DNA of 64,000 nt from a virus (lineage: Duplodnaviria; Caudoviricetes), in IMG/VR virus record IMGVR_UViG_3300028175_000001. One strand, 5' to 3'. Positions 1-63,998 of this stretch are shown here, in pieces. The translations under genes were made by a program, and so were the position numbers. Under the pieces are notes generated by a model. The model was not told the DNA's origin and ran no database searches. It saw only the letters and a list, made by a program, of their open reading frames with translations. Each line of letters opens with the position of its first letter. Position 1 is the stretch's first letter.

Positions 1-593
1 CCACCACTTTCATCTACCAAATATGCCTCGAATGAAACACCTTTGTATTTTTTCTGCAAAGACAAAAATGATGTTATGTTCGACTGTGCATCGTCATATA
101 ACCTAACTCTGGTATATTTACCCGTTTTCAAATATTTATTGAAAATAATTTTTTTGTTTTTTGCAGATGAACCAAGATTTAGGTTCCCCGCACGTTCAAC
201 ATAAACATCATCTATCGGAATTCCTTGTTTTCTAAATGTGTCGAGAAACTTCTTCTTGTCATCAAAGTCTGCTCTCGCCGTAACTATAATCATCTTCGCC
301 CCCTTTGCAATCACGTTTTTTGCGATTGCTTTCATTTTAGCGATCATGGGTTTGATGGGTTCGGACGTTTTCAGAAAATGTTCTGCGTCTCCAAACTCCC
401 CAAAATCAAACTCTTCTCCGTCTTTCAGTTTATAGCTATTAAACTCTTGGTTGTTTAATTTTCGAGCCACTCTACCATCCTTTTTAACCAAGATGTTAGC
501 GGTAGTCTTGAATAAAGTCTCGTCTATATCGAAAATGGTCAGTCCTATTCCTTCTTGAACTTTTTCTAAAACGTATTCTTTGAATGTTTTCAT
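1..593 (-). CDS. HAD-superfamily phosphatase (PNKP-phosphatase-like) with N-terminal capsid-targeting-like peptide; 3' end runs off the window
   Basis: Manual translation from ATG 593: MKTFKEYVLEKVQEGIGLTIFDIDETLF...VTAR...AKNKK...LYDD, containing HAD motifs I (DxD), II (T), III (K) and IV (DD); no stop before base 1. Confidence 0.8.
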   Translation of the reverse strand, partial: MKTFKEYVLEKVQEGIGLTIFDIDETLFKTTANILVKKDGRVARKLNNQEFNSYKLKDGEEFDFGEFGDAEHFLKTSEPIKPMIAKMKAIAKNVIAKGAKMIIVTARADFDDKKKFLDTFRKQGIPIDDVYVERAGNLNLGSSAKNKKIIFNKYLKTGKYTRVRLYDDAQSNITSFLSLQKKYKGVSFEAYLVDESG

Positions 594-19737: not shown

Positions 19738-22170
19738 TTAATATTCCTCTATAAAAACATTTCCTGTAAACTCTTCTAATTTTCGAATCATACGTTCCAT
19801 ATTTACACGAATAACTTTTCCTGTCTTAACGTTTCTAGAATAAAATTCCCATTCATTGTTTTCATTGTGAGGACCAAGTTTTGTTTCATTTCCCCCCTCA
19901 TCCATTGTATATATGTGTGATTCTGCGACATCATCTCTTGCATACAAATATGCTTGATTTACTCCTTGAGTAGTTGGTGCAGTACCATTTTTTATTGCTA
20001 GAATACCAGCACCTGATCCAACAGAGCCAGTAGTTATAGTTGCTCCAGCAAGGGCTAAAGAAGATTGAGCATGCACTTCTCCACCAAACCACGCCGCTTG
20101 TACAACGCCCAAACCACCAGCAGTTTTTATTGCCCCCGAAGTAGTCGATGTTGAATTAGTTGTTGATGAAACATTGATTTGATTAATTTTATCACTAAAA
20201 ATAAATCCATCAGTTAAATTATGAGTTATTTTTGCTTCTTCATCAGTTTCTAAATCAAGTCTACCGCCTTCAGTACCACTTCCAGAGGCCGTTCCATCTT
20301 CTTGTAACAGAAATCCAGTCGTGTTTGTGGTGTCCATAATTTTAAATTGACTACCAAATACAAGAGAACTGCCGTTTGATACAAAAACACTACCGTCTGT
20401 TCGAATTTTTTCACTACTTTCAATTTGAGTGTTTGAAACTAATTGATCCGAAAGTGCTTTTAATTTAATTTTATTACCCGCAGTACCAGAATATATTGTA
20501 AAGTTTTTTCCTAGACCGTCTGACCCAACCGTTATAATTCCTGTCATATCAACATTAGATTTGACATTCATCAATGTTCCATCTATTGTTGCGCCTGATC
20601 CTGTTATACTTAAATTAGAGCTACTAATATTTGTGTTTGTACCAGATAATGTAACATTAGATGTAATATTAGTATTTGTACCAGCAAATACTGAATTAGA
20701 TATAACATTAAATATCGCTGAATCCACTTCTACATTTGATGTTGCGGTAAATGTAATAAGATCATCAGAAGCGATCTCTATTTCTCCGTCAATTGGAGAA
20801 TTTATTGTTAACGCCGCATCTCTAAAAATTAATTCTTTTGTTCCTGATATGCTTACATTATCTGAAAATATACCAAAAGCACCACTTACATTTCCCGTTG
20901 CTGTCATTGAACTCGCAACAACAACGTTCCCTGTTATTGTAAGTTCATCTACATAAGCATTGGCAAAACGATTTGTAGTGTTTCCTAGATCATAAACCGA
21001 ATCTATATTGGGAAGAATATCAGATCCAATATCAGCATTGAATGTTACTGTATCTGCATTGGAATCCCCTAATGCAATTGTACCACCATCTGCTGTGATA
21101 TTTCCATTAGCATGTATATTTCCATGAACATTTAAGTTTCCACCGATAACCGCACTTTTAGCGATTCCCAGTCCTCCAGATAATGTCAAAGCACCAGTGC
21201 TGTTGCTTGTGGTGTCTATTGTTGAGGTGAGTGATACATTTGCGGTTATATTCACATTAGACGTAATAGTAGTTAATGATCCTGCCAATGTCGCATTAGC
21301 CGAAGAATATAAATTCTCACTTATGATATGAGTATTTGTGGCCAACAGAGTAATATTTGATGAAATAACAGTATTTGTTCCTGCAAACGTACTATTACTT
21401 GTTATATAAACATTTGCACCAGTAATTGAAACATTATCACTGGTAAAAGTACTATTTGATGAAATAACAGTATTTGTTCCTGCAAACGTACTATTACTTG
21501 TTATATAAACATTTGCACCAGTAATTGAAACATTATCACTGGTAAAAGTACTATTTGATGAAACAACCGTGTTTGTTCCTGCAAGTATAGTATTTGACGT
21601 TATATAAACATTTGCACCAGTAATTGAAACATTATCACTGGTAAAAGTACTATTTGATGAAACAACCGTGTTTGTTCCTGCAAGTATAGTATTTGACGTT
21701 ATATAAACATTTGCGCCTGTGAATGTTATATTTGCCGATGCATTTGTATTTGCTGTAATCAATAAATTTTCATCAGTAGATCCATTAATCACACTTACAT
21801 ATGCGTTTTTCCAACCTACGGTTGTGTTTCCTAAATCATATAAAGCATTTGTGGTACCAATTAAATTAGAAGATAATGAAGTAATTGTTGCAATATTTAA
21901 AACAGTGAGTGCATTTACTGTTAACTTATTATCAATCTTCATGCTTTCTTGTACACCAACACCGCCCTTAAAAATAACAGCGGCATTGGTAGAACTAGAC
22001 AATATTTTAGTATTGGCGAATACTGTTTCGGGTTCAACGTTTGAAAAAAATTGCGTTAATGATATTTTTTTATTCGAAGGGATGCCTGCTGGATCATCAA
22101 CGAGTAGTAGTAAATCTTCTCTAGCCGCGGTTGATACTGCAGGAAGACCCGAAATGCGTTTATCTGCCAT
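19738..22170 (-). CDS. Tail fibre/spike-like protein
   Basis: Ser/Thr/Asn-rich beta repeats, YDLG motifs, N-terminal anchor shared with 22188..22976. Confidence 0.75.
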   Translation of the reverse strand: MADKRISGLPAVSTAAREDLLLLVDDPAGIPSNKKISLTQFFSNVEPETVFANTKILSSSTNAAVIFKGGVGVQESMKIDNKLTVNALTVLNIATITSLSSNLIGTTNALYDLGNTTVGWKNAYVSVINGSTDENLLITANTNASANITFTGANVYITSNTILAGTNTVVSSNSTFTSDNVSITGANVYITSNTILAGTNTVVSSNSTFTSDNVSITGANVYITSNSTFAGTNTVISSNSTFTSDNVSITGANVYITSNSTFAGTNTVISSNITLLATNTHIISENLYSSANATLAGSLTTITSNVNITANVSLTSTIDTTSNSTGALTLSGGLGIAKSAVIGGNLNVHGNIHANGNITADGGTIALGDSNADTVTFNADIGSDILPNIDSVYDLGNTTNRFANAYVDELTITGNVVVASSMTATGNVSGAFGIFSDNVSISGTKELIFRDAALTINSPIDGEIEIASDDLITFTATSNVEVDSAIFNVISNSVFAGTNTNITSNVTLSGTNTNISSSNLSITGSGATIDGTLMNVKSNVDMTGIITVGSDGLGKNFTIYSGTAGNKIKLKALSDQLVSNTQIESSEKIRTDGSVFVSNGSSLVFGSQFKIMDTTNTTGFLLQEDGTASGSGTEGGRLDLETDEEAKITHNLTDGFIFSDKINQINVSSTTNSTSTTSGAIKTAGGLGVVQAAWFGGEVHAQSSLALAGATITTGSVGSGAGILAIKNGTAPTTQGVNQAYLYARDDVAESHIYTMDEGGNETKLGPHNENNEWEFYSRNVKTGKVIRVNMERMIRKLEEFTGNVFIEEY
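21354..21717. repeat. About 3.7 tandem copies of a 99-bp unit (33 aa TGANVYITSN...SDNVSI)
   Basis: Exact 99-bp periodicity (tatttgat at 21354, 21453...); two subtypes in A-A-B-B order. Confidence 0.9.
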
Positions 22171-23981: not shown

Positions 23982-26900
23982 TTAGTTAACAACAAAACCT
24001 TTTTTTTGCCGTTGTTCATTTGATTGAATAAATCTTGAATATAAATCTATATTTTCAAAAGTTTTAGGTGGATCTGTAGTATAAATGCCTTGTCCCGTTT
24101 TATCTTTTCCAATAGCCGGAATGCCTTCGTCACCTATAATACTATTTCCTTTTTCTGTTAATTCTTTAACACCAAATCCTAACATCATTTCAATAAATTC
24201 TTCCATAGCCATATCTTGATCATCATAAGCAGATTGAACATCGGCTAAAGTAATTGTCGCCAATGCTCCTTCTTTATTTTCTAATCTCAATTTATCAGGA
24301 GTTTCTTCAATTTTATAAAACGAATAGTCTTCTATATTTTTAATAGAAGTTCCCATTACATAATGAATTAGCTGTTCAAAAATTTTATAGGGATCTCTAT
24401 CATTAACAGTGATGTTTCCTTCTTTAACATCTTGACCAGGAGTAGTTTTTCTATAGGTGTTGGCTAACTTGTCAGTACCCCATTCTCCAGCTCTTTCATC
24501 GACTTTTGGTTCTATTGGTTTTTTTCTATCTAACAAAACTTTTTCAAGTTTTAATCTTGATTTAGTGATCATATTATCATTTTCTTGCGATATAATAGAT
24601 TCATACATGCCTTGATTATCCCCGAATTCCTCATATTGGCGTCTGCTAAAGCCCATTTTTTTAGCTAAAGCTTCCCAATCAGATATTTTATGTTCTTTAT
24701 TAGGGCCCGTGATTTCTTTTGCAATAGATTTTGCTTGATTCATCAAATAAAGTTTATTTACTATTGGATTGTTAGAAATTCTTGACTTAAATTCTTCATT
24801 AACTGCTTCTTCGACTTCGTTATTTTTTAAAAAGCCATCTCTTTTTCTTGATAACATTCGCATGTGATCACGATCTTTCCCGGAAAGATATTTTAAGTGT
24901 TTAGTTCGACTATGAAATTTATCAATTTCTTTATCGATTGATTTTAAATTTTCTATCATGTTATCCTCGTTTTTAAAATATTTTTTAGAAAAAGCCTTTG
25001 CGAATTTAACTGATTGGAGTTTCCGTTTATTTCTTACCTTGCCGGAGTTATTTCCATAATTTGCACTTGCTCCACCAGAACCTCCGGGTTCTCTCCCTTG
25101 AACTTCGGCTTTACTTGCGGCTCTACTAAGTAATCCTGTAGTTATTTCATTTACTTCATCGTTTTCTCCATGTCGTGCATAAAAAAGCCCGGATTGATTT
25201 TTTATCGAATCTTTACTTTGTGAATGATCTTGATTAATAAATTCTTCAGGAAAAGATTTAGCCATCATATCTAAAACAATTTTTCGTGGTTCTATTTCAT
25301 TATCAATGTCCTGAACGGAAGGAATTTTTCCTGAGGCGGCTATTTGTGCAAGTTTTTTAAAATATAAGCTATCAATACTATTTCTATGTTTTTTTGCATA
25401 AGCGGATAATTCTTGAGAAAGATCACGCAATTTTGTTTTCACGGCCGCTTCACTAAGTTCAACTTCTTCAATATACATATTCAATTCATATGAACCCTTA
25501 GGCATTCCGAAGACTTGAAATTGTAACCTTTTCTTTTGTGGTTTACCGTTTTTCTCCAACCCGATATTAAACCTTTTGGTCTTTCCTTCACCTGGCCGAC
25601 CTCTTCCAGAAGCACCGCCCATAGTGACTTCTCTGTTCCAATCGCCATCATCTAAATCATACCCCTGTTTTTCTGCATAATCCTTGGCATGAGTTGCCGC
25701 AGAGGTAAAAGTTTTGTGATAGATTGTATATTTTGATGCGGCTTCACCAAGTTCAACGTCTTCTTTGATTTTGAAAAATTTATTAAATTCCTGCCACATT
25801 ACTTTTTCTTGGTCTGGTTTTGTTTTATTTTGTTTAAAGATGAGTTCTAAACCACTCTTCATTTTAGGAATATTATTTTTATGTTTTTGTTTTAACATTC
25901 TGAAGATATTTTTAGATTGTATTCTTGTATTTTTCCACTCATCCCAACTATCACTGGCCTCTTTAACAATTTCATAATTGCCTCTGAACTGATAATCTAA
26001 ACCATTCAGTGTTGACTGTGCATCTTTTTCTGATTTGAATTGGAGTGCATCTTTTGTGTTATCAACATCTCTGGACTTGTTACTCAAATATCTATTCTTT
26101 GCCTTTTTGTATTTGATTACATATGACATTTCACCAAGTTCAACTTCTTCATTTTGTCTAAATTTTTTCAATGCCATCTTTGCAATTGTGTCCATTTTAG
26201 CATCAGTCTGGGATGACCATTCCGAATCATATTGATTGCCTCCAGAATTGTCGAAAAGTTTTAAATCATATTTGTCTGGGAAGTATTTTTTATAGACGGA
26301 ACGTTCACGTTGACTACCCATACTACCCATGATAGGGGAAATGGTGTTTATAATTAAACTATCTTTTGTCGAGTCATCAATCTTACCATCTTTTTTGAGT
26401 TTTTTAATAATTTCTACTGCATATTTGACAAACTCGTTTTTATATTTTGATGCGGCTTCACCAAGTTCAACTTCCTCTTCTGCTGGTTTAATCGCAAGAA
26501 GTCCTTGTTTCGATTTAGGAACTTTAAAGTGTTTAATTGCTAATTGTTTTGCGGGCCATATTCCATCTGCTTCACTTTTCTTAATTTCCAATTGCTTTCC
26601 ACCATATATTGCAATCCATCCTGCAAATTTTTCAGCAACTTCAACTTCTTCTACCATTGAGACAGTTAGTTCGGGGTAATCACCTTTTTGCATAAGGTCA
26701 TCCATTACCTTTTTAGCTTTACCACCAGAACTGTATGTGCCAAGTATTTTTCCATTTTCGTCTTTAATTGTATACTTACCTTTTTTCCATCCTTCAGCAA
26801 CTTCTTCAGATTTAGCGCCCGGTTTAATTTTAGACCAGTTGACTGATTTTAAATCGCCATAATATACTTTTTTTCCATTTTCCTTTTTCCACCATCTTAT

Positions 26901-28223
26901 AGTTGTCGTATCATTTCTAGCGTCCACATGATATACTCCCACCATCTGATCATCGGGAGTCTTGGGCGAAAAATTAATTTTATCTGCAATTCTTTTGGCT
27001 CCTGTACCAGTTTTAACTACCTGAAGAATTTCTCCTGTCGTTACATTAATAATGTTATATGGGCCGGGCTTCCATCCTCCATGCCTTTCATCAAGTTCAA
27101 CTTCCTCGAAAAACTCTTGCCAACTTTTTTTATCAAAATTGAGTTTTGGTATAGATTTTTTCATATATCTAAGTATTTCATCTGTTGATTTGACATCGCT
27201 CACAGCAGTAACTACAATCTTATTGTTTTTCCACACTGCGATTGTTTGACCACCCATACCAAGTTTTTCTAATGTCTTACCATCAGTGGAGAGTAATCTA
27301 CCTTCCAAACTTTCTTTATCATAAAACGCCTGTATGACATCTTTATCTTTTGGTTTAAGTGCTTCATTAAGTTCAACTTCTTCTTTCAAAACAAAATTCT
27401 TAACAACATCTTTATGAACTACCCCACCACGTTTCATGTAATCTTTGAGTAATGATACTACCCAATTTTGATCTTTTCGTGGCAATTTCTTCAACAATGA
27501 TCCATATTTGGAATTGTCTGGTGCAACTTCTGTTGGCAATACTCTTGAGCCAGGAACATACATTGTTGCAAAAATCAAAGAATATTCATCAAAAGTCATT
27601 TTAATTCCTTTGAACCAAATTTGATCTCCACCTTCATTGAGGTCAACGGTTTTCTTTTCGATATTTGCATCATAATTTTTATTTATTTTTCTGCATTCGA
27701 AAACACTTTGTCGATTTTTAATTTTTTGACCGAAAGCAAAAATATCTTTAGTATATCGTTTCTTATTTTCTTCAATTCCTTTGTAAATTTCAATTTTTTC
27801 TTTTTTACCCGATAATTTTATACTTTTTTCAGATTTTGTATTTTGTCGAGATTTAATTGACTTATTAATTGCTTTTCTTTTTTTTGCAAGAAATTTATCG
27901 CTATTATCTATATCTCCATCGTTATCTATATCTCCATCTTCTTTGCCAACAGGATCCAATTTTTTCTTTTTTTCACTACGACTCTGTGCTGGCGTTTCAT
28001 CATCATTGTTTGATTTATTAGATTTTTTCTTGACGTTTGCAGTAGCATCTTTTTCACGTTTTTTTTTATCATCAGGATTATCGTCTTTAGCATAATGATG
28101 ATGATGGACATCTCCTTGCTCTTTCAATTTTAAAAATTCTTTATATATTAAATCGTTTTCGGGTTCTGTGAATAAACCGGGCGCAAGTGTTTTCCAGTTT
28201 TCATGAAGTGGGTTCGGTTTCAT
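23982..28223 (-). CDS. Large modular protein (putative internal-head polyprotein)
   Basis: About 15 small Lys-rich modules separated by EEVELxE/EEVAE/EVNE linkers; DGDIDNDGDIDNSD motif near the N-terminus. Confidence 0.75.
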   Translation of the reverse strand: MKPNPLHENWKTLAPGLFTEPENDLIYKEFLKLKEQGDVHHHHYAKDDNPDDKKKREKDATANVKKKSNKSNNDDETPAQSRSEKKKKLDPVGKEDGDIDNDGDIDNSDKFLAKKRKAINKSIKSRQNTKSEKSIKLSGKKEKIEIYKGIEENKKRYTKDIFAFGQKIKNRQSVFECRKINKNYDANIEKKTVDLNEGGDQIWFKGIKMTFDEYSLIFATMYVPGSRVLPTEVAPDNSKYGSLLKKLPRKDQNWVVSLLKDYMKRGGVVHKDVVKNFVLKEEVELNEALKPKDKDVIQAFYDKESLEGRLLSTDGKTLEKLGMGGQTIAVWKNNKIVVTAVSDVKSTDEILRYMKKSIPKLNFDKKSWQEFFEEVELDERHGGWKPGPYNIINVTTGEILQVVKTGTGAKRIADKINFSPKTPDDQMVGVYHVDARNDTTTIRWWKKENGKKVYYGDLKSVNWSKIKPGAKSEEVAEGWKKGKYTIKDENGKILGTYSSGGKAKKVMDDLMQKGDYPELTVSMVEEVEVAEKFAGWIAIYGGKQLEIKKSEADGIWPAKQLAIKHFKVPKSKQGLLAIKPAEEEVELGEAASKYKNEFVKYAVEIIKKLKKDGKIDDSTKDSLIINTISPIMGSMGSQRERSVYKKYFPDKYDLKLFDNSGGNQYDSEWSSQTDAKMDTIAKMALKKFRQNEEVELGEMSYVIKYKKAKNRYLSNKSRDVDNTKDALQFKSEKDAQSTLNGLDYQFRGNYEIVKEASDSWDEWKNTRIQSKNIFRMLKQKHKNNIPKMKSGLELIFKQNKTKPDQEKVMWQEFNKFFKIKEDVELGEAASKYTIYHKTFTSAATHAKDYAEKQGYDLDDGDWNREVTMGGASGRGRPGEGKTKRFNIGLEKNGKPQKKRLQFQVFGMPKGSYELNMYIEEVELSEAAVKTKLRDLSQELSAYAKKHRNSIDSLYFKKLAQIAASGKIPSVQDIDNEIEPRKIVLDMMAKSFPEEFINQDHSQSKDSIKNQSGLFYARHGENDEVNEITTGLLSRAASKAEVQGREPGGSGGASANYGNNSGKVRNKRKLQSVKFAKAFSKKYFKNEDNMIENLKSIDKEIDKFHSRTKHLKYLSGKDRDHMRMLSRKRDGFLKNNEVEEAVNEEFKSRISNNPIVNKLYLMNQAKSIAKEITGPNKEHKISDWEALAKKMGFSRRQYEEFGDNQGMYESIISQENDNMITKSRLKLEKVLLDRKKPIEPKVDERAGEWGTDKLANTYRKTTPGQDVKEGNITVNDRDPYKIFEQLIHYVMGTSIKNIEDYSFYKIEETPDKLRLENKEGALATITLADVQSAYDDQDMAMEEFIEMMLGFGVKELTEKGNSIIGDEGIPAIGKDKTGQGIYTTDPPKTFENIDLYSRFIQSNEQRQKKGFVVN
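25447..27380. repeat. Six dispersed linker repeats with core AAGTTCAAC, encoding E(E/D)VEL[GNDS]E
   Basis: Cores at 25455, 25749, 26136, 26463, 27093, 27369 (spacings 294, 387, 327, 630, 276, all in frame); 31-bp exact repeat at 25727..25757 and 26441..26471. Confidence 0.9.
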
Positions 28224-30206
28224 TTATGCCTCTCCGTCTTTGTGTTGAAGATATTTTTTATCTAAAGGCGTGGCAAGTCTACTAGTTACTTTTATCTTGT
28301 CTTTATGGTCCCTAAATGATTTTTTTGCTTTTATTTTTGCAGAAGCAACATTTCCTGCTTTTACATATCTGCCCTGAGGAGTGTCTATAACTACATCTGC
28401 TTCACTAATAGCCAACCATTTTTTAAATGCCTGATCTGTGTCCATTTCTTCCTTTATTCTGTGTTTAGAATTAACTTGATTCCATAAGTCTTCATCCGCG
28501 ATTAATCTGGTTTTGCCGCCAGTTAAAAACGAATTAACTCTTGACTCTGCCCATTCTTGAGAAGTAGTTCCTGGTTTATGACCAGTTTTCCACGAACTAA
28601 CTCCACGATCATACACTTTTTCTAAAATTTTAAATGAAATGCCTGATTGTTCTGCTTTCCTTTTTAAATTTTCTTCTATAGTGAACTGTGCTTTAGCCTC
28701 ACTTATATTTACAATATGTCCCATTTCATCAATTATAATTTCTTCATTATATCCTGGATGACTGGACTTCATCATTTTCTTTTTCTTTTCTTGTTGTTTA
28801 TTTGCCCACATTTTATGAATCGTTGCTCTAGACGGTCCTTTTTTCAAATTAGCATATGGATTTTCCACTCCTTCAAATTTATTCAGAGGCACACCATGAT
28901 CCTGATGCATAATTAGTCTTGCATTCATAGAAATAAAAGGAATATCTGCTTTAACAAGTTGTGTCAATGCATCTTTATTTTTTGCAAGTTGTCTTACTAT
29001 TTTCTCTAATTCTACATTTCTACCCAAACTAATTCTTTTCCCTCTCCACGGCTCATATTGCTGTTTCAGTTTATCTATCATTTTATTCGAAAATTTTTCC
29101 TCATCAATTATATCTTCTCCCACAACATCAGGAGTTTTTCCTTTATAATAAACATTTCCCTTTAAAGCCTTATGTGCTTTTTTTACATGTTTTTTATGAA
29201 CATTAACTTTTCCATCTTTAAACTCTCCCTTTACTCCTGCATCATCTAAAGCCATTTTTACTTGTAATCCAGTACCCTCTGGCAATCCATGTTTATTATG
29301 TTGCGCCCAAGCAAACGCATATGCTTTATCCGCACCCACTTTCTTTTTTAATGTTTTTACTTGTATTTCTCTTCCAGGGGGGGCTTCTTCATCAGGGCCA
29401 TATCCTTTAGGGGTTTTATCTACTATGCTAACGCCCCAATCTTTTTCTCTTTGTTTTTTTACATCTGCCACTTTTTTAAATAATTTATGTAAATGAGCTT
29501 TCTTGTCTGCTGGTGTTTTGGGAAATTCTCTACCTTCTTTTATTTTATGTGCGGGTACTTTTTCAGGGCGAAGTGCTTCTTTCAAATTAATTTGTTCCGT
29601 TTTTATGGTTTCAAGTTTCATAGCCTTCCTAATTTCGTTATACATAGACTTTGTATCTTTAGCAGATAATTTCGTACCTTTTTTAAAACTATCAATGTCT
29701 CCAGAAACTGCAAACTCTCTTAATTTTGATGCAGACATTCCAGCGGCACCTTCAGCATCGGGATCACGGTCTCCTGAACTTACAAAATCAATATCTGTAA
29801 AATCATAAAATCCATGAGCTTTTCCTTCTACTCCATTATATTGTGATATCCATTTTGAAAATTTACTTAGTCTATCACTACCAACAACAAATACAAGTTT
29901 TTTAAATCCTTTAGAATACAAATCAGATAATGCTTCAAAAACTGTAGGTTTAACATCAATATGAATATGTGGACCTATCGTTTTTTCAACATAATAAAGT
30001 TTTCTTTCTGGACCCAAAGGATCCTTTTTAGCATTCTGAGTAGGAGACAAGCAAATATAAGGTTCTGCTTTATGCTTTCTTGCCTCTGATAAAATCTTTT
30101 TTGCAAGTTTAACATGACCTATAGAAGGAGGATTCATTCTCCCAAAAGTTGCAATTGCCGTCTTTTCTTGCTTTGTTTCTACTAAAAACTTTTTATAAAT
30201 CTTCAT
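28224..30206 (-). CDS. HIGH-motif nucleotidyltransferase (cytidyltransferase/NMNAT-like) fused to a string of small modules
   Basis: FGRMNPPSIGH, VVGSDR, GMSASKLR; starts MKIYKKFLVE; C-terminal VYDRG..SWKTGHKPG..WAESRVNSF module. Confidence 0.8.
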   Translation of the reverse strand: MKIYKKFLVETKQEKTAIATFGRMNPPSIGHVKLAKKILSEARKHKAEPYICLSPTQNAKKDPLGPERKLYYVEKTIGPHIHIDVKPTVFEALSDLYSKGFKKLVFVVGSDRLSKFSKWISQYNGVEGKAHGFYDFTDIDFVSSGDRDPDAEGAAGMSASKLREFAVSGDIDSFKKGTKLSAKDTKSMYNEIRKAMKLETIKTEQINLKEALRPEKVPAHKIKEGREFPKTPADKKAHLHKLFKKVADVKKQREKDWGVSIVDKTPKGYGPDEEAPPGREIQVKTLKKKVGADKAYAFAWAQHNKHGLPEGTGLQVKMALDDAGVKGEFKDGKVNVHKKHVKKAHKALKGNVYYKGKTPDVVGEDIIDEEKFSNKMIDKLKQQYEPWRGKRISLGRNVELEKIVRQLAKNKDALTQLVKADIPFISMNARLIMHQDHGVPLNKFEGVENPYANLKKGPSRATIHKMWANKQQEKKKKMMKSSHPGYNEEIIIDEMGHIVNISEAKAQFTIEENLKRKAEQSGISFKILEKVYDRGVSSWKTGHKPGTTSQEWAESRVNSFLTGGKTRLIADEDLWNQVNSKHRIKEEMDTDQAFKKWLAISEADVVIDTPQGRYVKAGNVASAKIKAKKSFRDHKDKIKVTSRLATPLDKKYLQHKDGEA

Positions 30207-30214
30207 AGAATTAT

Positions 30215-30628
30215 TTATTCAAATGAAGATGGTACTTCTATTAATTCTTTATCAGCAGTCACATAATATTCTATGCCTTCATGAACAATTATTGTATGAG
30301 TTGATCTAAAAGTATCTTCTTTAATTTTTTCTTTATTTTTTTTGCTCTTTTTAACAGTTTGCAATATCTTTTGATACACAACCTTGTCCCCCATAATTAG
30401 ACCAAGGAGCTTATCAAAAATCCGTATAATCATCATTCTTTGTTTTGGATTTGGCTTTTTATCGGCTTCTAAATCTTGCATTGTTTTAAGAAACAGTGCA
30501 TATTCATCTTGATTAATTAAACCTTCTCTTGCTAATCTTTTTAATCGAGCATCAACATCTTCAGTCAATACTATTTTCATATAAGATTCGCCTAATTTGT
30601 TTAAGAGATTTTGTTCTGATACTTCCAT
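30215..30628 (-). CDS. Hypothetical protein
   Basis: ORF track; overlaps the upstream gene stop. Confidence 0.6.
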   Translation of the reverse strand: MEVSEQNLLNKLGESYMKIVLTEDVDARLKRLAREGLINQDEYALFLKTMQDLEADKKPNPKQRMMIIRIFDKLLGLIMGDKVVYQKILQTVKKSKKNKEKIKEDTFRSTHTIIVHEGIEYYVTADKELIEVPSSFE

Positions 30629-31863
30629 TATGCTTTACTCCCAAATGTTTTTGGTGCTAAAAAATTTTGTCTTGAAAATTCTAATCTATCTATTAGTTTT
30701 ATTGCTCCATCAGCAATTGTAACTGCAACAAATCCTTCCGGATTCGTAATTTCAAACCCATTATCGGTTTGAATAAATGTTTTTGTCATGGGCTGAATAT
30801 CTTGTAATTTTTTAATTATTATCATTTTAGCGGCTATAAGAACATTTTGCATTTGAAACATGTTTTTCAAAGCATTTTTATTTTCTGTAAAAAATTTTAA
30901 AATGTCTTCATTTTTTTTACGTCTATTTTCTTTGCCCTTTTCTGATTTTAATTTATCAACCTCGTTAGTTAATTTATGTTGTAAATATTTAATCAATCCA
31001 ATAACATGTGCATTAACATTTCCAATGGGTTTACCCTGCCGTATTTTAAAATTAGCAAATGCTTTAATTTGCGTATTTAAATATTTATCATCTCTTATAC
31101 CGTCAAGTAACTTCTTATCAAGAGTTCTAAATAACTTACCAGCCAGTGAAAGCACACTGAAAAATGAATCAGTTTCTTCTTTAGTAAAAGATGCTATTCC
31201 GTCCATTTTTTCATATTCAGCATCTTTAAACCACACACTTGATGTTTGTTTAAAATTATCAACATTTACATCAAATGTAGCATTCATTTGATTTACTACT
31301 TCACCAGTATATTTTGTATGCCAAACAATGCCTAATTTTGAAGCATTTATTTTTTTCCCTAATTCACTTTTTAATTTAATCGCATATGTTATAGTGTTTG
31401 GAGTAAAAACAATATGCGATTCTCCATCTATAGATTGTATCGTTGTAGGTTTTTGTGGACTGTATAATAAATCCCCTTGATAAACGCCATCCATTCCAAT
31501 ATCTTTAAGATATCTCAAAGAATCTTTTAAAACTTCCTGTAACCCACCCTCGTGATTATTTTCAATGTCTTCATTTGAAAAATTTAATTTGGGTACTTTT
31601 GAAAATGCACCATGCTTAGTGGCTACAAAAAATTTTTCAGTTTCAGGATCGATTCCGGCCACAACTGCAGGAGCCCCATCCCATTTAGTTGTTATTTTAA
31701 TTTGTTTAGAAGAATCCCCTTTTAGTGTTGATCCTAATGAACTTAAATATGTGATTGCTTTTTTTACACCATCAAATCCACCGTTTAAAACTTCATCTTC
31801 TAAATGTTCAAGGTGCTTATTAGCACCCTGAGATTCTAATAAAAATTCTTTAAATAAAAGCAT
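30628..31863 (-). CDS. Ligase-like covalent nucleotidyltransferase-fold protein (DUF6267-like from memory)
   Basis: Motif I TKWDG, motif IV EGFVAV, motif V IKL; starts MLLFKEFLLE. Confidence 0.65.
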   Translation of the reverse strand: MLLFKEFLLESQGANKHLEHLEDEVLNGGFDGVKKAITYLSSLGSTLKGDSSKQIKITTKWDGAPAVVAGIDPETEKFFVATKHGAFSKVPKLNFSNEDIENNHEGGLQEVLKDSLRYLKDIGMDGVYQGDLLYSPQKPTTIQSIDGESHIVFTPNTITYAIKLKSELGKKINASKLGIVWHTKYTGEVVNQMNATFDVNVDNFKQTSSVWFKDAEYEKMDGIASFTKEETDSFFSVLSLAGKLFRTLDKKLLDGIRDDKYLNTQIKAFANFKIRQGKPIGNVNAHVIGLIKYLQHKLTNEVDKLKSEKGKENRRKKNEDILKFFTENKNALKNMFQMQNVLIAAKMIIIKKLQDIQPMTKTFIQTDNGFEITNPEGFVAVTIADGAIKLIDRLEFSRQNFLAPKTFGSKA

Positions 31864-31934
31864 GATCCTTTATAATATCCAATATAAACATTAATAGTAT
31901 TAACTATTTATTATATTATCTAATTGAGGATTAT

Positions 31935-32654
31935 TTAAAGAGAAGACAGTGTTGACTCATTTGTCCAGCTATTCGCCAATGAATTGTGAGCAAATGCTCT
32001 ATTACATTTGTCTAGAAGGCCCGGAATATTATAAATCAGTTTTGACAATGCTATTACAGATTTTGGAAAACCTATATTGTTTGCCAAAACACATATCCAA
32101 GTAATCTTTCCATAATGTGGACTATGATGATTTTTCCATGATCCGTTAGTGGGATCTATTAACAATAAAGCATTTAAAACTACATCAGGATCAATTATTT
32201 CGTTTGTGATAACATTTGTCGAATCAACGATTGTTTCTATGATTTCAACACGTACTTTTTGTTCAGTGCATCCTTTAAGACATTCACCTGTTTTAGTGTC
32301 TTGAGGACAACCCATAGGATTAAGACACTCTTGAACATTTTTTACGCCTTCTGTAATAACTGTTTTACTCTCCCATTCTGGCGTTGGAAGATCAGAAATA
32401 ATTTCAGTAACCTTTACCTTAGGAATTACTGCTTTTACAATTACAGGTTTGAAAAGTTGTAATCTTACTTCTTCATTTTCTTGACTAATTACAACCATTT
32501 TTTTACCGCCAAGAGTTATGACAGTACCAAATGGCAGTCCTACTTTTTCACTAATTTTATTAACAGGGGTTGTCGCCACAACTGGATAGGGGGCGCAGGA
32601 ACTTGAAAATATTGTTACTACGAATGACAATATTATCAGCATAAATTTATACAT
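31935..32654 (-). CDS. Putative lipoprotein
   Basis: MYKFMLIILSFVVTIFSSSC lipobox; own sigma70 promoter. Confidence 0.6.
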   Translation of the reverse strand: MYKFMLIILSFVVTIFSSSCAPYPVVATTPVNKISEKVGLPFGTVITLGGKKMVVISQENEEVRLQLFKPVIVKAVIPKVKVTEIISDLPTPEWESKTVITEGVKNVQECLNPMGCPQDTKTGECLKGCTEQKVRVEIIETIVDSTNVITNEIIDPDVVLNALLLIDPTNGSWKNHHSPHYGKITWICVLANNIGFPKSVIALSKLIYNIPGLLDKCNRAFAHNSLANSWTNESTLSSL

Positions 32655-62741: not shown

Positions 62742-63941
62742 TTATTTAATAATAGTTCTAGAAATAGCTGATGCATATTTTTTGATATTTTCAGGCGCTT
62801 GTGCCATTGCATCGTCTGAAGAATTTTCTTCATTGAATTCCATATCATCTTGTGTATCTTCGATTAAAACGGTTTTTGGATTAATCGTTTCTTCTGCACG
62901 GAAATACTTGTCTTTAATAATCTGAAGTTTTTCAGTATAGGAATCTTCATTTTCATATCCAATACCCTCAGCCAATTTAATCATTTTTTCTTGATCAACT
63001 TCAGTCATTCCTTCTGAAACCATATACAAAGAATCCATCTTTTTGTACTCTTTGAGGTCTTTAGATGAATCAATGTTTTTTTGTATTTCAGAATTTAATG
63101 ACTCTTCAAGGTCTTCAACCTTAGCGAATAGGTCATCAACAAGATCAACCTTTTCGTCAGGAATATCAACATAATGTTCGACAAACAGATTTTTAAGACC
63201 AACCATAAAATCTTCAACGATTTCTGAACGAATGCCCTTATCAACGGCAAGTTCATTTTCTTGCATCCATTCATTAACAACATAATTCATGAAATCATCT
63301 ACTTTTTCAATCATAACACTATGGTTATTTTCGATGGCTTCTTGAAGTTCTGTTTTATATTGTTCATCGAGTTTGTCTATTCTTGTGGAAACTTCATCGT
63401 TGACTCTAGCAAAAACTGCGGCTTCAAATATAGTAGCCGCCTTTTCTTTAAATTCGTCTGACAGTTCTTCTCCCTCAATAAGGGCTTGAACATCACTCTC
63501 TAAATCAAATTCTTCTCTAGTAACAACTTCTCGTGTTTCTTTTTTATTTTCGGAAACAATTTCATTACCTTCTTCGTCGAATTCGGCTTCATCAATTTCG
63601 TTAAGCGCACCGAGAATTTCAGCAACTTCATCTTTGCTCATCTCGTCTAACTTATCATAAATTGATTTAATAAGTGACATTTTTGATGCACTTTCAGAAA
63701 CTCCTCCTTTATCAGCAGGACGCTTCTTAGCAGATGGCACCCCTTTTGTAAAATCTGGTTTGGGCCCATCGGGAACCTCGTTATTTACTCCCGTATCTAT
63801 TGCTTTTTTGGGAGCTTTTTTAATTGGTTCTTTATTTTTTCCAGCACCTGGATATGAAGTCTCATGTACCTGAGATTCTTCATTTGTAATATCCTCTTGA
63901 GTTTCCTCTTGAGTTTCCTCTATTACGTTTTCTTCTGACAT
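62742..63941 (-). CDS. 22: Prohead core scaffold protein (gp22)
   Basis: LSDEFKEKAATIFEAAV, VVNEWMQENELAV, GLKNLFVEHYVDIP. Confidence 0.93.
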   Translation of the reverse strand: MSEENVIEETQEETQEDITNEESQVHETSYPGAGKNKEPIKKAPKKAIDTGVNNEVPDGPKPDFTKGVPSAKKRPADKGGVSESASKMSLIKSIYDKLDEMSKDEVAEILGALNEIDEAEFDEEGNEIVSENKKETREVVTREEFDLESDVQALIEGEELSDEFKEKAATIFEAAVFARVNDEVSTRIDKLDEQYKTELQEAIENNHSVMIEKVDDFMNYVVNEWMQENELAVDKGIRSEIVEDFMVGLKNLFVEHYVDIPDEKVDLVDDLFAKVEDLEESLNSEIQKNIDSSKDLKEYKKMDSLYMVSEGMTEVDQEKMIKLAEGIGYENEDSYTEKLQIIKDKYFRAEETINPKTVLIEDTQDDMEFNEENSSDDAMAQAPENIKKYASAISRTIIK

Positions 63942-63990: not shown

Positions 63991-63998
63991 TATTTATA
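63991..63998 (-). promoter_or_regulatory. T4-type late promoter TATAAATA
   Basis: Exact consensus 50 bp upstream of gp22. Confidence 0.6.

What the first reader, a model, noticed from the sequence alone, without database searches (positions are those of the whole stretch)
23982..28223. Beads-on-a-string internal-head polyprotein with prohead-protease linkers
Seen: after a low-complexity N-terminus, the 1413-aa ORF breaks into about 15 Lys-rich modules of roughly 50-110 aa. Each ends in an acidic linker: VDLNE, EEVELNE, EEVELDE, SEEVAE, EEVEVAE, EEVELGE (x2), IVKE, EDVELGE, EEVELSE, DEVNE, EAVNE, DVKE. Known: T4 gp21 cleaves after (L/I)-x-E and matures internal proteins that are ejected with the DNA; gp23 in this window has NFLTE at the expected position. 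Inference: this is one precursor that is packaged and cut into a cocktail of small DNA-binding or anti-defence effectors, i.e. a polyprotein form of T4 IPI/II/III.
Basis: partly seen in the sequence, partly recalled or inferred. Interest (0 to 1): 0.88.

Follow-up and report, generated by a model that had tools for sequence, protein, structure and literature searches.

The report
Shuffled polyprotein of phage head cargo
An abundant marine T4-like phage encodes one 1413-residue protein made of about a dozen small, basic, independently folding modules joined by a near-invariant acidic linker that looks like a cut site for the phage's own head-maturation protease, so one gene probably delivers an exchangeable set of small proteins packed with the DNA.

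Summary
The strict linker E[ED][VIT][ED][LIV]xE occurs 7 times in all six frames of the 64-kb window. All 7 are in this ORF, against 0.007 expected by shuffling.

Homologues keep a conserved N-terminal region and C-terminal domain. Between them, discrete modules are gained, lost, duplicated and reordered. Modules also exist as standalone 90-130 aa proteins, which end just before the linker. Their leaders end in (L/I/V)-x-E at the module start.

P1 is Glu in 280 of 283 linkers, P3 is L/I/V and P1' is mostly Ala or Gly. This matches the T4 gp21 rule. A gp21 homologue lies next to gp22 in the same phage.

Published virion proteomes of two cyanophages detected the syntenic counterpart of this gene and the upstream "cytidylyltransferase". 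That upstream gene carries a T4-CTS-like 10-residue leader.

A nearly identical genome loses all similarity at the first base of one linker, so linkers are also recombination joints.

Cleavage and packaging of this protein itself are inferred, not shown. The scan flagged the same architecture in another genome before. Best reading: a prohead-protease-processed polyprotein of internal head proteins (about 0.5). Interest is high; it is a new variant of a known kind.

The parts
23982..28223 (-). Whole ORF, 1413 aa (P0001): polyprotein-like array
27768..28223 (-). Conserved N-terminal region M0 (aa 1-152). It has LHE at 6-8, YKEFLKLKE at 27-35, an HHHH run and a Lys-rich stretch, and ends ...KGIEE.
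   Evidence: Conserved in 26 of 61 long homologues
27849..27971 (-). DPVGKEDGDIDNDGDxDxSDKFLxKKRKAI motif (aa 85-125): Ca-binding-like acidic loops followed by a basic helix. This is the piece shared with cyanophage counterparts.
   Evidence: phrog_4359 and phrog_38880; tblastn to cyanophages; 52% identity over 61 aa to the S-SM1 virion protein SSM1_191
27087..27362 (-). Module M3 (aa 288-379), widespread and also found as standalone proteins of about 97-103 aa
26793..27086 (-). Module M4 (aa 380-477): an M5-like beta-beta-alpha start followed by a 3-stranded sheet
   Evidence: AF2 pLDDT 63-74
26631..26792 (-). Module M5 (aa 478-531), beta-beta-alpha-beta
   Evidence: AF2 pLDDT 80-91; 43 copies in retrieved proteins; phrog_17019
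26457..26630 (-). Module M6 (aa 532-589)
   Evidence: AF2 pLDDT about 97; phrog_19202
25449..25742 (-). Module M10 (aa 828-925), the most widespread module. A compact alpha+beta domain with no known fold relative.
   Evidence: AF2 pLDDT 90, pTM 0.81. No significant match in the PDB: Foldseek best E 0.1, VIA best Z 5.0. 115 copies, 30 of them C-terminal without a linker.
23985..24794 (-). Conserved C-terminal part M13+M14 (aa 1144-1413). It contains GTDKLxxxYRKxTPGQDVKE. The last 145 aa are acidic (pI 4.6).
27363..27383 (-). Linker EEVELNE
27087..27107 (-). Linker EEVELDE
   Evidence: pLDDT <50
26793..26807 (-). Linker EEVAE. Its first base (26807) is the homology breakpoint with the 99.8%-identical contig L016.
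26631..26651 (-). Linker EEVEVAE
   Evidence: pLDDT <50
26457..26477 (-). Linker EEVELGE. Together with the next 5 codons it forms a 39-nt near-exact repeat of the 25727-25765 region.
26130..26150 (-). Linker EEVELGE
25743..25763 (-). Linker EDVELGE
25449..25469 (-). Linker EEVELSE
28224..30206 (-). Upstream gene of the same operon: an HxGH nucleotidyltransferase-like ('cytidylyltransferase', T4-GC190) plus DUF5824 protein, 660 aa. Its N-terminus MKIYKKFLVE is T4-CTS-like. Its middle holds modules that appear in polyprotein homologues.
   Evidence: homologues detected in virions (PMC3037559 Table S8, PMC9146016)
30628..31863 (-). First gene of the operon: DUF6267 protein, 411 aa, with the CTS-like N-terminus MLLFKEFLLE
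31905..31927 (-). Conserved intergenic element TTAGATAATATAATAAATAGTTA, about 45 nt upstream of the DUF6267 start. It contains an NATAAATA late-promoter-like octamer.
   Evidence: Identical in 5 related genomes within an otherwise variable spacer; consensus from PMC2984593
61382..62722 (-). gp23 major capsid protein, with a putative gp21 site ...NFLTE|AGQ
62742..63941 (-). gp22 scaffold. The gp21 protease gene lies just beyond the window end.

Best explanation
The ORF is a late-expressed precursor (step 1). It is incorporated into the prohead core of a marine T4-like myovirus (step 2). There the phage's gp21-type serine protease cuts after the Glu of each (L/I/V)-x-E linker, consensus EEVE(L/I/V)xE|A/G (step 3). 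This releases about a dozen small basic Lys-rich domains that stay with the packaged DNA and enter the host with it, as T4 internal proteins do (step 4). The same 15-21-nt linker sequence also acts as in-frame microhomology, so modules are exchanged between phages and between this gene and the adjacent cytidylyltransferase/DUF5824 gene (step 5). What the individual modules do is unknown; candidates are DNA charge neutralisation and countering host defences.

Steps shown here: the modular anatomy, the conserved boundary signal, module shuffling, a recombination breakpoint at a linker, the presence of gp21, and virion presence of cyanophage counterparts (from the literature).

Steps inferred: late expression (step 1), packaging of this protein (step 2), cleavage (step 3), ejection and function (step 4).
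For: Motif and module anatomy:
- All 7 strict motifs in the window fall in this ORF, against 0.007 expected.
- Per-module phmmer shows M3, M5, M6, M10, M11 and M12 recurring in different order and copy number. Hits span modules end to end.
- 1705 representative proteins carry such modules.
- Standalone or terminal copies stop before the linker; for M10, 30 copies are terminal without a linker.
- AF2 gives separate domains and disordered linkers. M10 is a compact domain.
- Modules are basic, pI 9-10 without the linker.

Boundary signal:
- Among 248 non-redundant module starts, [LIVF]xE sits exactly upstream in 50% and within +/-2 aa in 83%. The background is 2.4% per position. This includes leaders without EEVE.
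- In 283 linkers, P1 is E 280: D 3, although P2 is mostly Asp. P3 is L/I/V. P1' is A, G or K.
- T4 gp21 cuts after L/I-x-E, and Asp at P1 blocks processing (PMC9026906).

Protease and targeting:
- A gp21 homologue (PF03420) lies next to gp22 in a contig identical to the window.
- The T4 CTS determinant pattern (aromatic at 4 and 7, aliphatic at 8, Glu at 10) hits 3 of 556 Met positions in the window. All three are true ORF starts, and two are the genes just upstream in this operon.
- The same pattern is present on cyanophage cytidylyltransferases and on two M10-first proteins, P0184 and P0197.

Virion evidence from the literature:
- S-SM1: T4-GC190 with 25 counts, the downstream SSM1_191 with 10 and SSM1_192 with 7 (PMC3037559 Table S8; locus checked).
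- S-SZBM1: genes 140 and 139 (PMC9146016).
- SSM1_191 shares the DNDGD-RRKAI motif with this protein.

Expression and recombination:
- A conserved NATAAATA-like element lies upstream of the operon.
- The breakpoint with the 99.8%-identical contig falls at the first base of a linker.
Against: - There is no direct evidence that this protein is in virions or is cut.
- The cyanophage counterparts share only synteny and a motif of about 60 aa. S-SZBM1_139 lacks even that motif by eye.
- The protein's own N-terminus (MKPNPLHENW...) does not fit the strict CTS pattern.
- T4 IPs are cut only once; multiply cut T4 core proteins are mostly expelled.
- gp23's own site (NFLTE) lacks the acidic P4-P7, so the extra EEVE conservation is not explained by gp21 specificity alone.
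- Glu is equally strict at P7 (280:3). The Leu codon is CTT in 15 of 19 linkers against 27% elsewhere. Part of the conservation is therefore at the DNA level.
- The gene sits beside replication genes, not in the head module.
- The complex prediction gave no verdict.
Confidence: 0.5

Rival explanations
1. A virion-associated but essentially uncleaved multi-domain ('polyvalent'-type) protein. The linkers are short conserved spacers whose main role is at the DNA level, as in-frame recombination joints that allow cassette exchange.
For: - The breakpoint falls exactly at a linker.
- Within a genome the linkers are nearly identical in nucleotides.
- Leu is CTT in 15 of 19 linkers.
- A 39-nt repeat spans two linkers.
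- Glu is as strict at P7 as at P1.
- The polyvalent-protein precedent includes proteins delivered unprocessed (PMC5512222).
Against: - Between genomes, synonymous codons vary (GTT/GTA, GAA/GAG) while the peptide is kept.
- Leaders of standalone modules that lack EEVE still end in [LIV]xE at the module start.
- P2 tolerates Asp and many other residues while P1 does not.
- The linkers follow the rule of a protease that this phage encodes.
Confidence: 0.27
2. A prohead core or scaffold accessory that is chopped by gp21 and expelled from the head, like T4 gp22, gp67 and gp68, rather than a source of retained or ejected effectors.
For: - It has multiple gp21-type sites, as multiply cut T4 core proteins do (PMC9026906).
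- The linkers are acidic, as gp22 is.
Against: - Modules are folded, heterogeneous, basic and shuffled, and some exist as standalone genes.
- Counterparts are found in mature virions (PMC3037559, PMC9146016).
- Hypervariability is unexpected for a scaffold.
Confidence: 0.08
3. A non-virion intracellular protein of the replication or host-takeover programme. It is either left whole or cut by another protease.
For: - It lies directly after gp43-UvsX-gp41.
- Sigma-70-like hexamers (GATAAT/TATAAT) overlap the conserved upstream element.
- No homologue of P0001 itself has been detected in any proteome.
Against: - Operon neighbours and downstream genes (T4-GC190, GC425 'S-layer domain', GC426) are virion proteins in cyanophages.
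- No other protease with this specificity is evident in the window.
Confidence: 0.1
4. An assembly chimera or mis-called ORF.
For: The repeated linkers could in principle mislead assemblers.
Against: - Independent contigs from ENA, JGI, Logan and IMG/VR carry intact orthologues at the same locus.
- The frame is open for 4.2 kb in 31.6% GC DNA.
Confidence: 0.02

Closest known systems
T4 internal proteins IPI/IPII/IPIII and Alt (CTS-targeted, gp21-processed, ejected with the DNA)
   Same: - Small basic Lys-rich cargo.
- The (L/I)-x-E|A boundary rule with obligatory Glu at P1.
- A gp21 homologue is present.
- 10-residue CTS-like leaders occur on operon neighbours and on two proteins that begin with an M10 module.
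- Hypervariable content between related phages.
   Different: - Here many cargo units are strung in one ORF with internal sites, whereas T4 IPs are separate genes cut once.
- No sequence or fold homology to the IPs.
- The extended acidic EEVE part of the site is not a T4 feature.
- The protein's own N-terminus is not a canonical CTS.
Polyvalent proteins of phages and conjugative elements (Iyer et al. 2017, PMC5512222)
   Same: Many unrelated domains sit in one polypeptide. Such proteins are predicted to be packaged and delivered with the DNA, and their domain architectures are highly variable.
   Different: Those proteins carry recognisable enzymatic or anti-defence domains and often an embedded peptidase. 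Here no Pfam domain is found, modules are 45-120 aa, there is no embedded peptidase, and the junctions carry one conserved site that matches the prohead protease.
phiKZ / 201phi2-1 / SPN3US inner-body and ejection proteins cut at multiple S/A/G-x-E sites by a gp21-like prohead protease
   Same: Head-internal proteins are processed at several Glu-specific sites, and the fragments stay with the DNA.
   Different: The phage group is different and the P3 preference differs (L/I/V here). No homology. Those proteins are not arrays of shuffled autonomous modules.
PeSL mobile regulatory cassettes that mediate modular shuffling in T4-type genomes (PMC2839356)
   Same: A short conserved sequence flanks exchangeable units and marks recombination junctions.
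   Different: PeSLs are intergenic promoter/stem-loop elements between genes. Here the joint is in-frame coding sequence inside one gene.

Membership tests
T4-type internal head proteins (CTS-targeted, gp21-processed) | N-terminal capsid targeting sequence of about 10 aa (targeting residues 4 and 7, processing residues 8 and 10) | tested here: inconclusive
   P0001 starts MKPNPLHENW and fails the strict pattern. It has LHE at 6-8 and YKEFLKLKE at 27-35. The strict pattern is met by the two upstream operon genes, by cyanophage homologues of one of them, and by two M10-first proteins, P0184 and P0197.
T4-type internal head proteins (CTS-targeted, gp21-processed) | Maturation site (L/I)-x-E with Glu at P1 | tested here: met
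   13-14 module boundaries in P0001 carry the site. Across 283 linkers, P1 is E 280: D 3 and P3 is L/I/V. This is a sequence-level test only; cleavage itself is untested.
T4-type internal head proteins (CTS-targeted, gp21-processed) | Cognate S77 prohead protease encoded by the phage | tested here: met
   A PF03420 gene of 214 aa lies directly upstream of gp22 in contig L015, which has 1 mismatch in 11.2 kb to the window.
T4-type internal head proteins (CTS-targeted, gp21-processed) | Present in mature virions and ejected with the DNA | not testable with these tools
   Only syntenic cyanophage counterparts were detected in virions (PMC3037559 Table S8; PMC9146016). Ejection has not been studied.
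T4-type internal head proteins (CTS-targeted, gp21-processed) | Sequence or fold homology to IPI/II/III | tested here: not met
   No Pfam hit. PHROG hits go only to families of unknown function. The M10 and 288-589 models have no PDB match.
Polyvalent proteins (Iyer et al. 2017) | 2-15 distinct domains in one polypeptide with variable architecture | tested here: met
Polyvalent proteins (Iyer et al. 2017) | Domains drawn from the described repertoire (MuF, ART, MPTase, PBECR and others), often with an embedded peptidase | tested here: not met
   No Pfam family at E <= 0.01 over the whole protein.
Kyanoviridae locus 'T4-GC190 cytidylyltransferase + downstream virion protein' | Position directly downstream of the HxGH/DUF5824 gene and upstream of the 'S-layer domain' gene | tested here: met
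   The window order matches HTVC008M, Melnitz, S-SM1, S-SSM5, P-SSM2 and S-SZBM1.
Kyanoviridae locus 'T4-GC190 cytidylyltransferase + downstream virion protein' | Shared DPVGxEDxDxDNDGD...RRKAI motif | tested here: met
   52% identity over 61 aa to SSM1_191; tblastn hits in 19 cyanophage records.

The most novel reading that the evidence does not exclude
The linker has two jobs. As peptide it is the prohead-protease cut site. As DNA it is the in-frame recombination joint. Together these make an integron-like, protein-level cassette system: abundant marine T4-like phages assemble, swap and co-deliver variable sets of small head-packaged effectors, with modules moving between the polyprotein gene, the adjacent packaged enzyme gene and standalone CTS-led genes.
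Probability: 0.3. Interest if true: 0.88.

Novelty: new variant of a known kind. Interest (0 to 1): 0.78.

Why it matters
Internal, ejected head proteins are the first phage molecules to meet host defences. They are known mainly from T4 and the giant phages. If this reading is right, some of the most abundant ocean phages (pelagimyophage- and cyanomyophage-like) package a large, rapidly shuffled repertoire of unknown small proteins. At least 1705 protein clusters at 50% identity carry such modules.

The reading also gives a simple sequence rule for finding these modules and their boundaries. It extends the T4 CTS/gp21 targeting logic to marine phages. It suggests that packaged enzymes (an HxGH nucleotidyltransferase-like protein and DUF6267) accompany the modules. 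It offers a natural design for multi-cargo delivery in phage heads. All of this can be tested directly by virion mass spectrometry.

Tried and rejected
- tblastn of the whole protein against 50,697 GenBank phages found nothing at 1e-5. Only pieces found weak motif hits.
- Pfam gave no family.
- The ESM Atlas returned only unnamed viral clusters for M10, low-scoring (0.85) unnamed bacterial clusters for M3, and nothing usable for the C-terminal domain.
- Fold searches of the M10 model (Foldseek PDB, VIA wide, AFDB clusters) and of the 288-589 model gave only family members or chance-level matches. No function could be assigned to any module.
- The fragment alignment A2 (828-1413) was misaligned by MAFFT and was not used. 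In A1 the M5 fragments went partly onto the M5-like start of M4, and M3 came out at low confidence despite depth.
- Complex prediction with the cognate gp21 and a 36-aa linker peptide returned no verdict. This counts neither for nor against.
- No whole genome is held for the window, and the L006 record is not held.
- The sigma-70 and terminator scans were uninformative.
- The exact T4 late octamer TATAAATA is absent near the operon. Only the NATAAATA variant is there.
- PDB sequence searches for DUF6267 and the 660-aa protein found nothing.
- I considered exterior decoration or fibre and assembly chimera, and rejected both (see rivals).


Full report
**What is there.** The window is 31.6% GC. 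It carries a T4-like replication and head gene set on the minus strand: gp43 polymerase, UvsX, gp41, clamp and clamp loader, gp46/47, UvsW, gp23 and gp22. Its nearest cultured relatives are Methylophilales phage Melnitz, Pelagibacter phage HTVC008M and the cyanomyoviruses (Kyanoviridae). These share about 40% identity on the DUF6267 gene.

The finding's ORF is real at 23982-28223, on the minus strand, and is 1413 aa (P0001). It is the last gene of a tightly packed run:
- DUF6267 (30628-31863)
- a 137-aa ORF
- a 660-aa HxGH nucleotidyltransferase-like/DUF5824 protein (28224-30206)
- P0001

Downstream come a homologue of the cyanophage 'S-layer domain' virion protein and fibre-like proteins.

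**The linker is not chance.** The strict form E[ED][VIT][ED][LIV]xE occurs 7 times in all six frames of the 64 kb, and all 7 are in this ORF. Shuffling the protein 20,000 times gives a mean of 0.007.

**Modules are real, autonomous and shuffled.** A search of 5.8 billion proteins returned 61 long relatives whose best local alignments cover only 3-34% of the query (68% for one near-identical variant) despite high scores. Per-module phmmer shows three things:
- a conserved N-terminal region (aa 1-152);
- a conserved C-terminal part (aa 1144-1413);
- between them, modules M3, M5, M6, M10, M11 and M12 in different orders and copy numbers, with hits running from the first to the last residue of each module.

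One orthologue (P0007, 1072 aa) sits in a perfectly syntenic locus. Its flanking replication genes are 82-91% identical to the window's, yet the polyprotein aligns at only 36% and the upstream 660/715-aa gene at 51%. Three distant homologues sit at the same T4-like locus.

An exhaustive HMMER search with aa 153-1143 found 1705 representative proteins (810 at E <= 1e-10) of 89 to 1287 aa carrying such modules. These include standalone M3, M9 and M10 proteins of 89-130 aa. Standalone or C-terminal copies end exactly where the linker would begin. M10 ends ...YELNAYIN-stop, and M3 ends ...SYSRYF-stop. Of the M10 copies, 30 are terminal without a linker and 46 are followed by [LIVF]xE. The heptapeptide is therefore a separate element, added only when another module follows.

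AF2 on aa 288-589 gives pTM 0.30. M5 and M6 are confident domains (pLDDT 80-98), and all four linkers fall below pLDDT 50. M10 alone folds as a compact alpha+beta domain with pLDDT 90 and pTM 0.81. These results go against 'one continuous fold'.

**The boundary signal is a Glu-specific (L/I/V)-x-E.** In 248 non-redundant contexts just upstream of module starts, [LIVF]xE is exactly in place in 50% and within +/-2 residues in 83%. The background is 2.4% per position. This holds also for leaders with no EEVE, such as ...DILQLMGE|ALKP...KVLHE|T and MFTFSEYLKE|GSDY.

In 283 non-redundant linkers the positions read as follows:
- P1: Glu 280, Asp 3, even though the neighbouring P2 is mostly Asp;
- P3: L, I or V;
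- P1': Ala, Gly or Lys.

T4 gp21 cleaves after L/I-x-E, classically at a Glu-Ala bond, and Asp at P1 blocks processing (PMC9026906). A gp21 homologue (Peptidase_S77) lies directly upstream of gp22 in a contig that differs from the window by 1 base in 11.2 kb. gp23 reads ...NFLTE|AGQ.

**Links to the head.** T4 targets its internal proteins through the 10-residue CTS MKTYQEFIAE (PMC8442874). Residues 4 and 7 matter for targeting, and residues 8 and 10 for processing (PMC9026906). The pattern M..[FYW]..[FYW][LIVM].E hits 3 of 556 Met positions in the window, and all three are true ORF starts:
- DUF6267 (MLLFKEFLLE), in the operon just upstream;
- the 660-aa protein (MKIYKKFLVE), also in that operon;
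- an ORF at the window edge.

The same pattern heads the cytidylyltransferase homologues of S-SM1, S-SSM5 and P-SSM2 and two proteins that begin with an M10 module. A basic 132-aa ORF next to gp21 starts MKNFREFKDE.

Two published virion proteomes support packaging of the locus:
- S-SM1: T4-GC190 cytidylyltransferase (25 counts), the gene directly downstream SSM1_191 (10), SSM1_192 (7) and the S-layer-domain protein (17) were detected (PMC3037559 Table S8; locus checked).
- S-SZBM1: the cytidylyltransferase (gene 140) and its downstream neighbour (gene 139) were detected (PMC9146016).

SSM1_191 shares with P0001 the DPVG-DNDGD-RRKAI motif, 52% identity over 61 aa, followed by a linker-like KKEEVENVEE. 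Modules are basic, pI 9-10 without the linker. T4 IPs are likewise basic, and their lysines contact the DNA (PMC3012670).

A conserved element containing an NATAAATA-type late octamer lies about 45 nt upstream of the operon in five genomes (consensus from PMC2984593). It overlaps sigma-70-like hexamers, so this is weak evidence.

**DNA-level role.** Within the window, all the strict linkers read GAR GAN GTT GAA (CTT/GTT) nnT GAA. Across seven genomes Leu at P3 is CTT in 15 of 19 linkers, against 27% elsewhere, while Val and Glu codons vary between genomes. Melnitz carries the identical 21 nt.

Contig L016 is 99.8% identical to the window from 26807 downwards and unrelated above it. Position 26807 is the first base of the EEVAE linker. 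Modules also move between the polyprotein gene and the adjacent 660/715-aa gene. Linkers are therefore recombination joints as well. This agrees with another first-stage note on the same stretch. The scan had also flagged the same architecture in another genome.

**What is not known.** No tool gave a function or known fold for any module. Packaging and cleavage of P0001 itself are inferred. Its own N-terminus is not a canonical CTS. The acidic P4-P7 and the strict Glu at P7 go beyond known gp21 determinants and may reflect DNA-level conservation. The complex prediction gave no verdict.

**Verdict.** The best reading is a gp21-processed polyprotein of head-internal proteins whose linkers double as cassette-exchange joints (about 0.5). 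The main rival is an uncleaved packaged multi-domain protein (about 0.27). It is a new variant of known kinds (T4 internal proteins and polyvalent proteins), it is widespread in marine T4-like phages, and virion mass spectrometry can test it directly.

Noticed in passing
window 28224-30206 (-) and L006 7851-9998: The virion-type 'cytidylyltransferase' (HxGH)/DUF5824 protein is itself mosaic. Between its N-terminal enzyme domain and its C-terminal DUF5824 it holds modules that occur in polyprotein homologues, for example EGTGLQVKMALDDAG... and an M12-like MSKKLLYRAASKAEVQGREP. In L006 these have EEVEVDE and EDIEIDE linkers.
   Followed up: partly
window 30628-31863 (-): DUF6267 (411 aa) has a T4-CTS-like leader and a KWDG(A)P stretch that recalls the KxDG motif of ligase/capping nucleotidyltransferases. 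This resemblance is from memory only. The PDB sequence search found nothing, so it is untested.
   Followed up: partly
window 1-593 (-): This ORF runs off the window edge. It starts MKTFKEYVLE, the closest match in the window to the T4 CTS MKTYQEFIAE, followed by a FDIDE(T)-like motif. It may be another packaged enzyme.
   Followed up: no
L015 8571-9286 (same phage, beyond window end): Two very basic small ORFs lie directly upstream of gp21. One is a 106-aa Arg/Lys-rich protamine-like protein. The other is 132 aa, starts MKNFREFKDE and ends ...KTPGQ. By position they correspond to T4 gp67/gp68 or to internal proteins.
   Followed up: no
P0001 aa 1250-1268; cytidylyltransferase C-termini in L004, L005, L014; L001 10233-10745: The motif G(T)D/ExLxxxY(R/K)KxTPGQ recurs at or near the ends of several proteins of this locus in distant phages. 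Its function is unknown.
   Followed up: no
window 63991-63998 (-): An exact T4 late-promoter octamer TATAAATA lies 50 nt upstream of the gp22 start.
   Followed up: partly
window 31935-32654 (-): This 239-aa ORF has a signal-peptide/lipobox-like N-terminus (…IFSSSC). It is only 44% identical between genomes whose neighbouring genes are 82-91% identical, so it is a second hypervariable gene at this locus.
   Followed up: no
window 19738-22170 (-): This 810-aa fibre-like protein has internal near-exact repeats (…SSNSTFTSDNVSITGANVYITSN…). Repeat number differs between the window (810 aa), L016 (744 aa) and L006 (770 aa).
   Followed up: no
L014 2489-3862, L002 10634-12586, P0190, P0197: A small Cys-containing module, CW.GYK..G.K.K.GKEVP.C, recurs in these mosaic proteins. 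It may be a zinc knuckle.
   Followed up: no
L016 2-640 and 633-4100: In the near-identical variant contig the polyprotein region is called as two overlapping ORFs: a 212-aa fragment ending in a stop, then a 1155-aa ORF. This is either a split gene or a frameshift.
   Followed up: no
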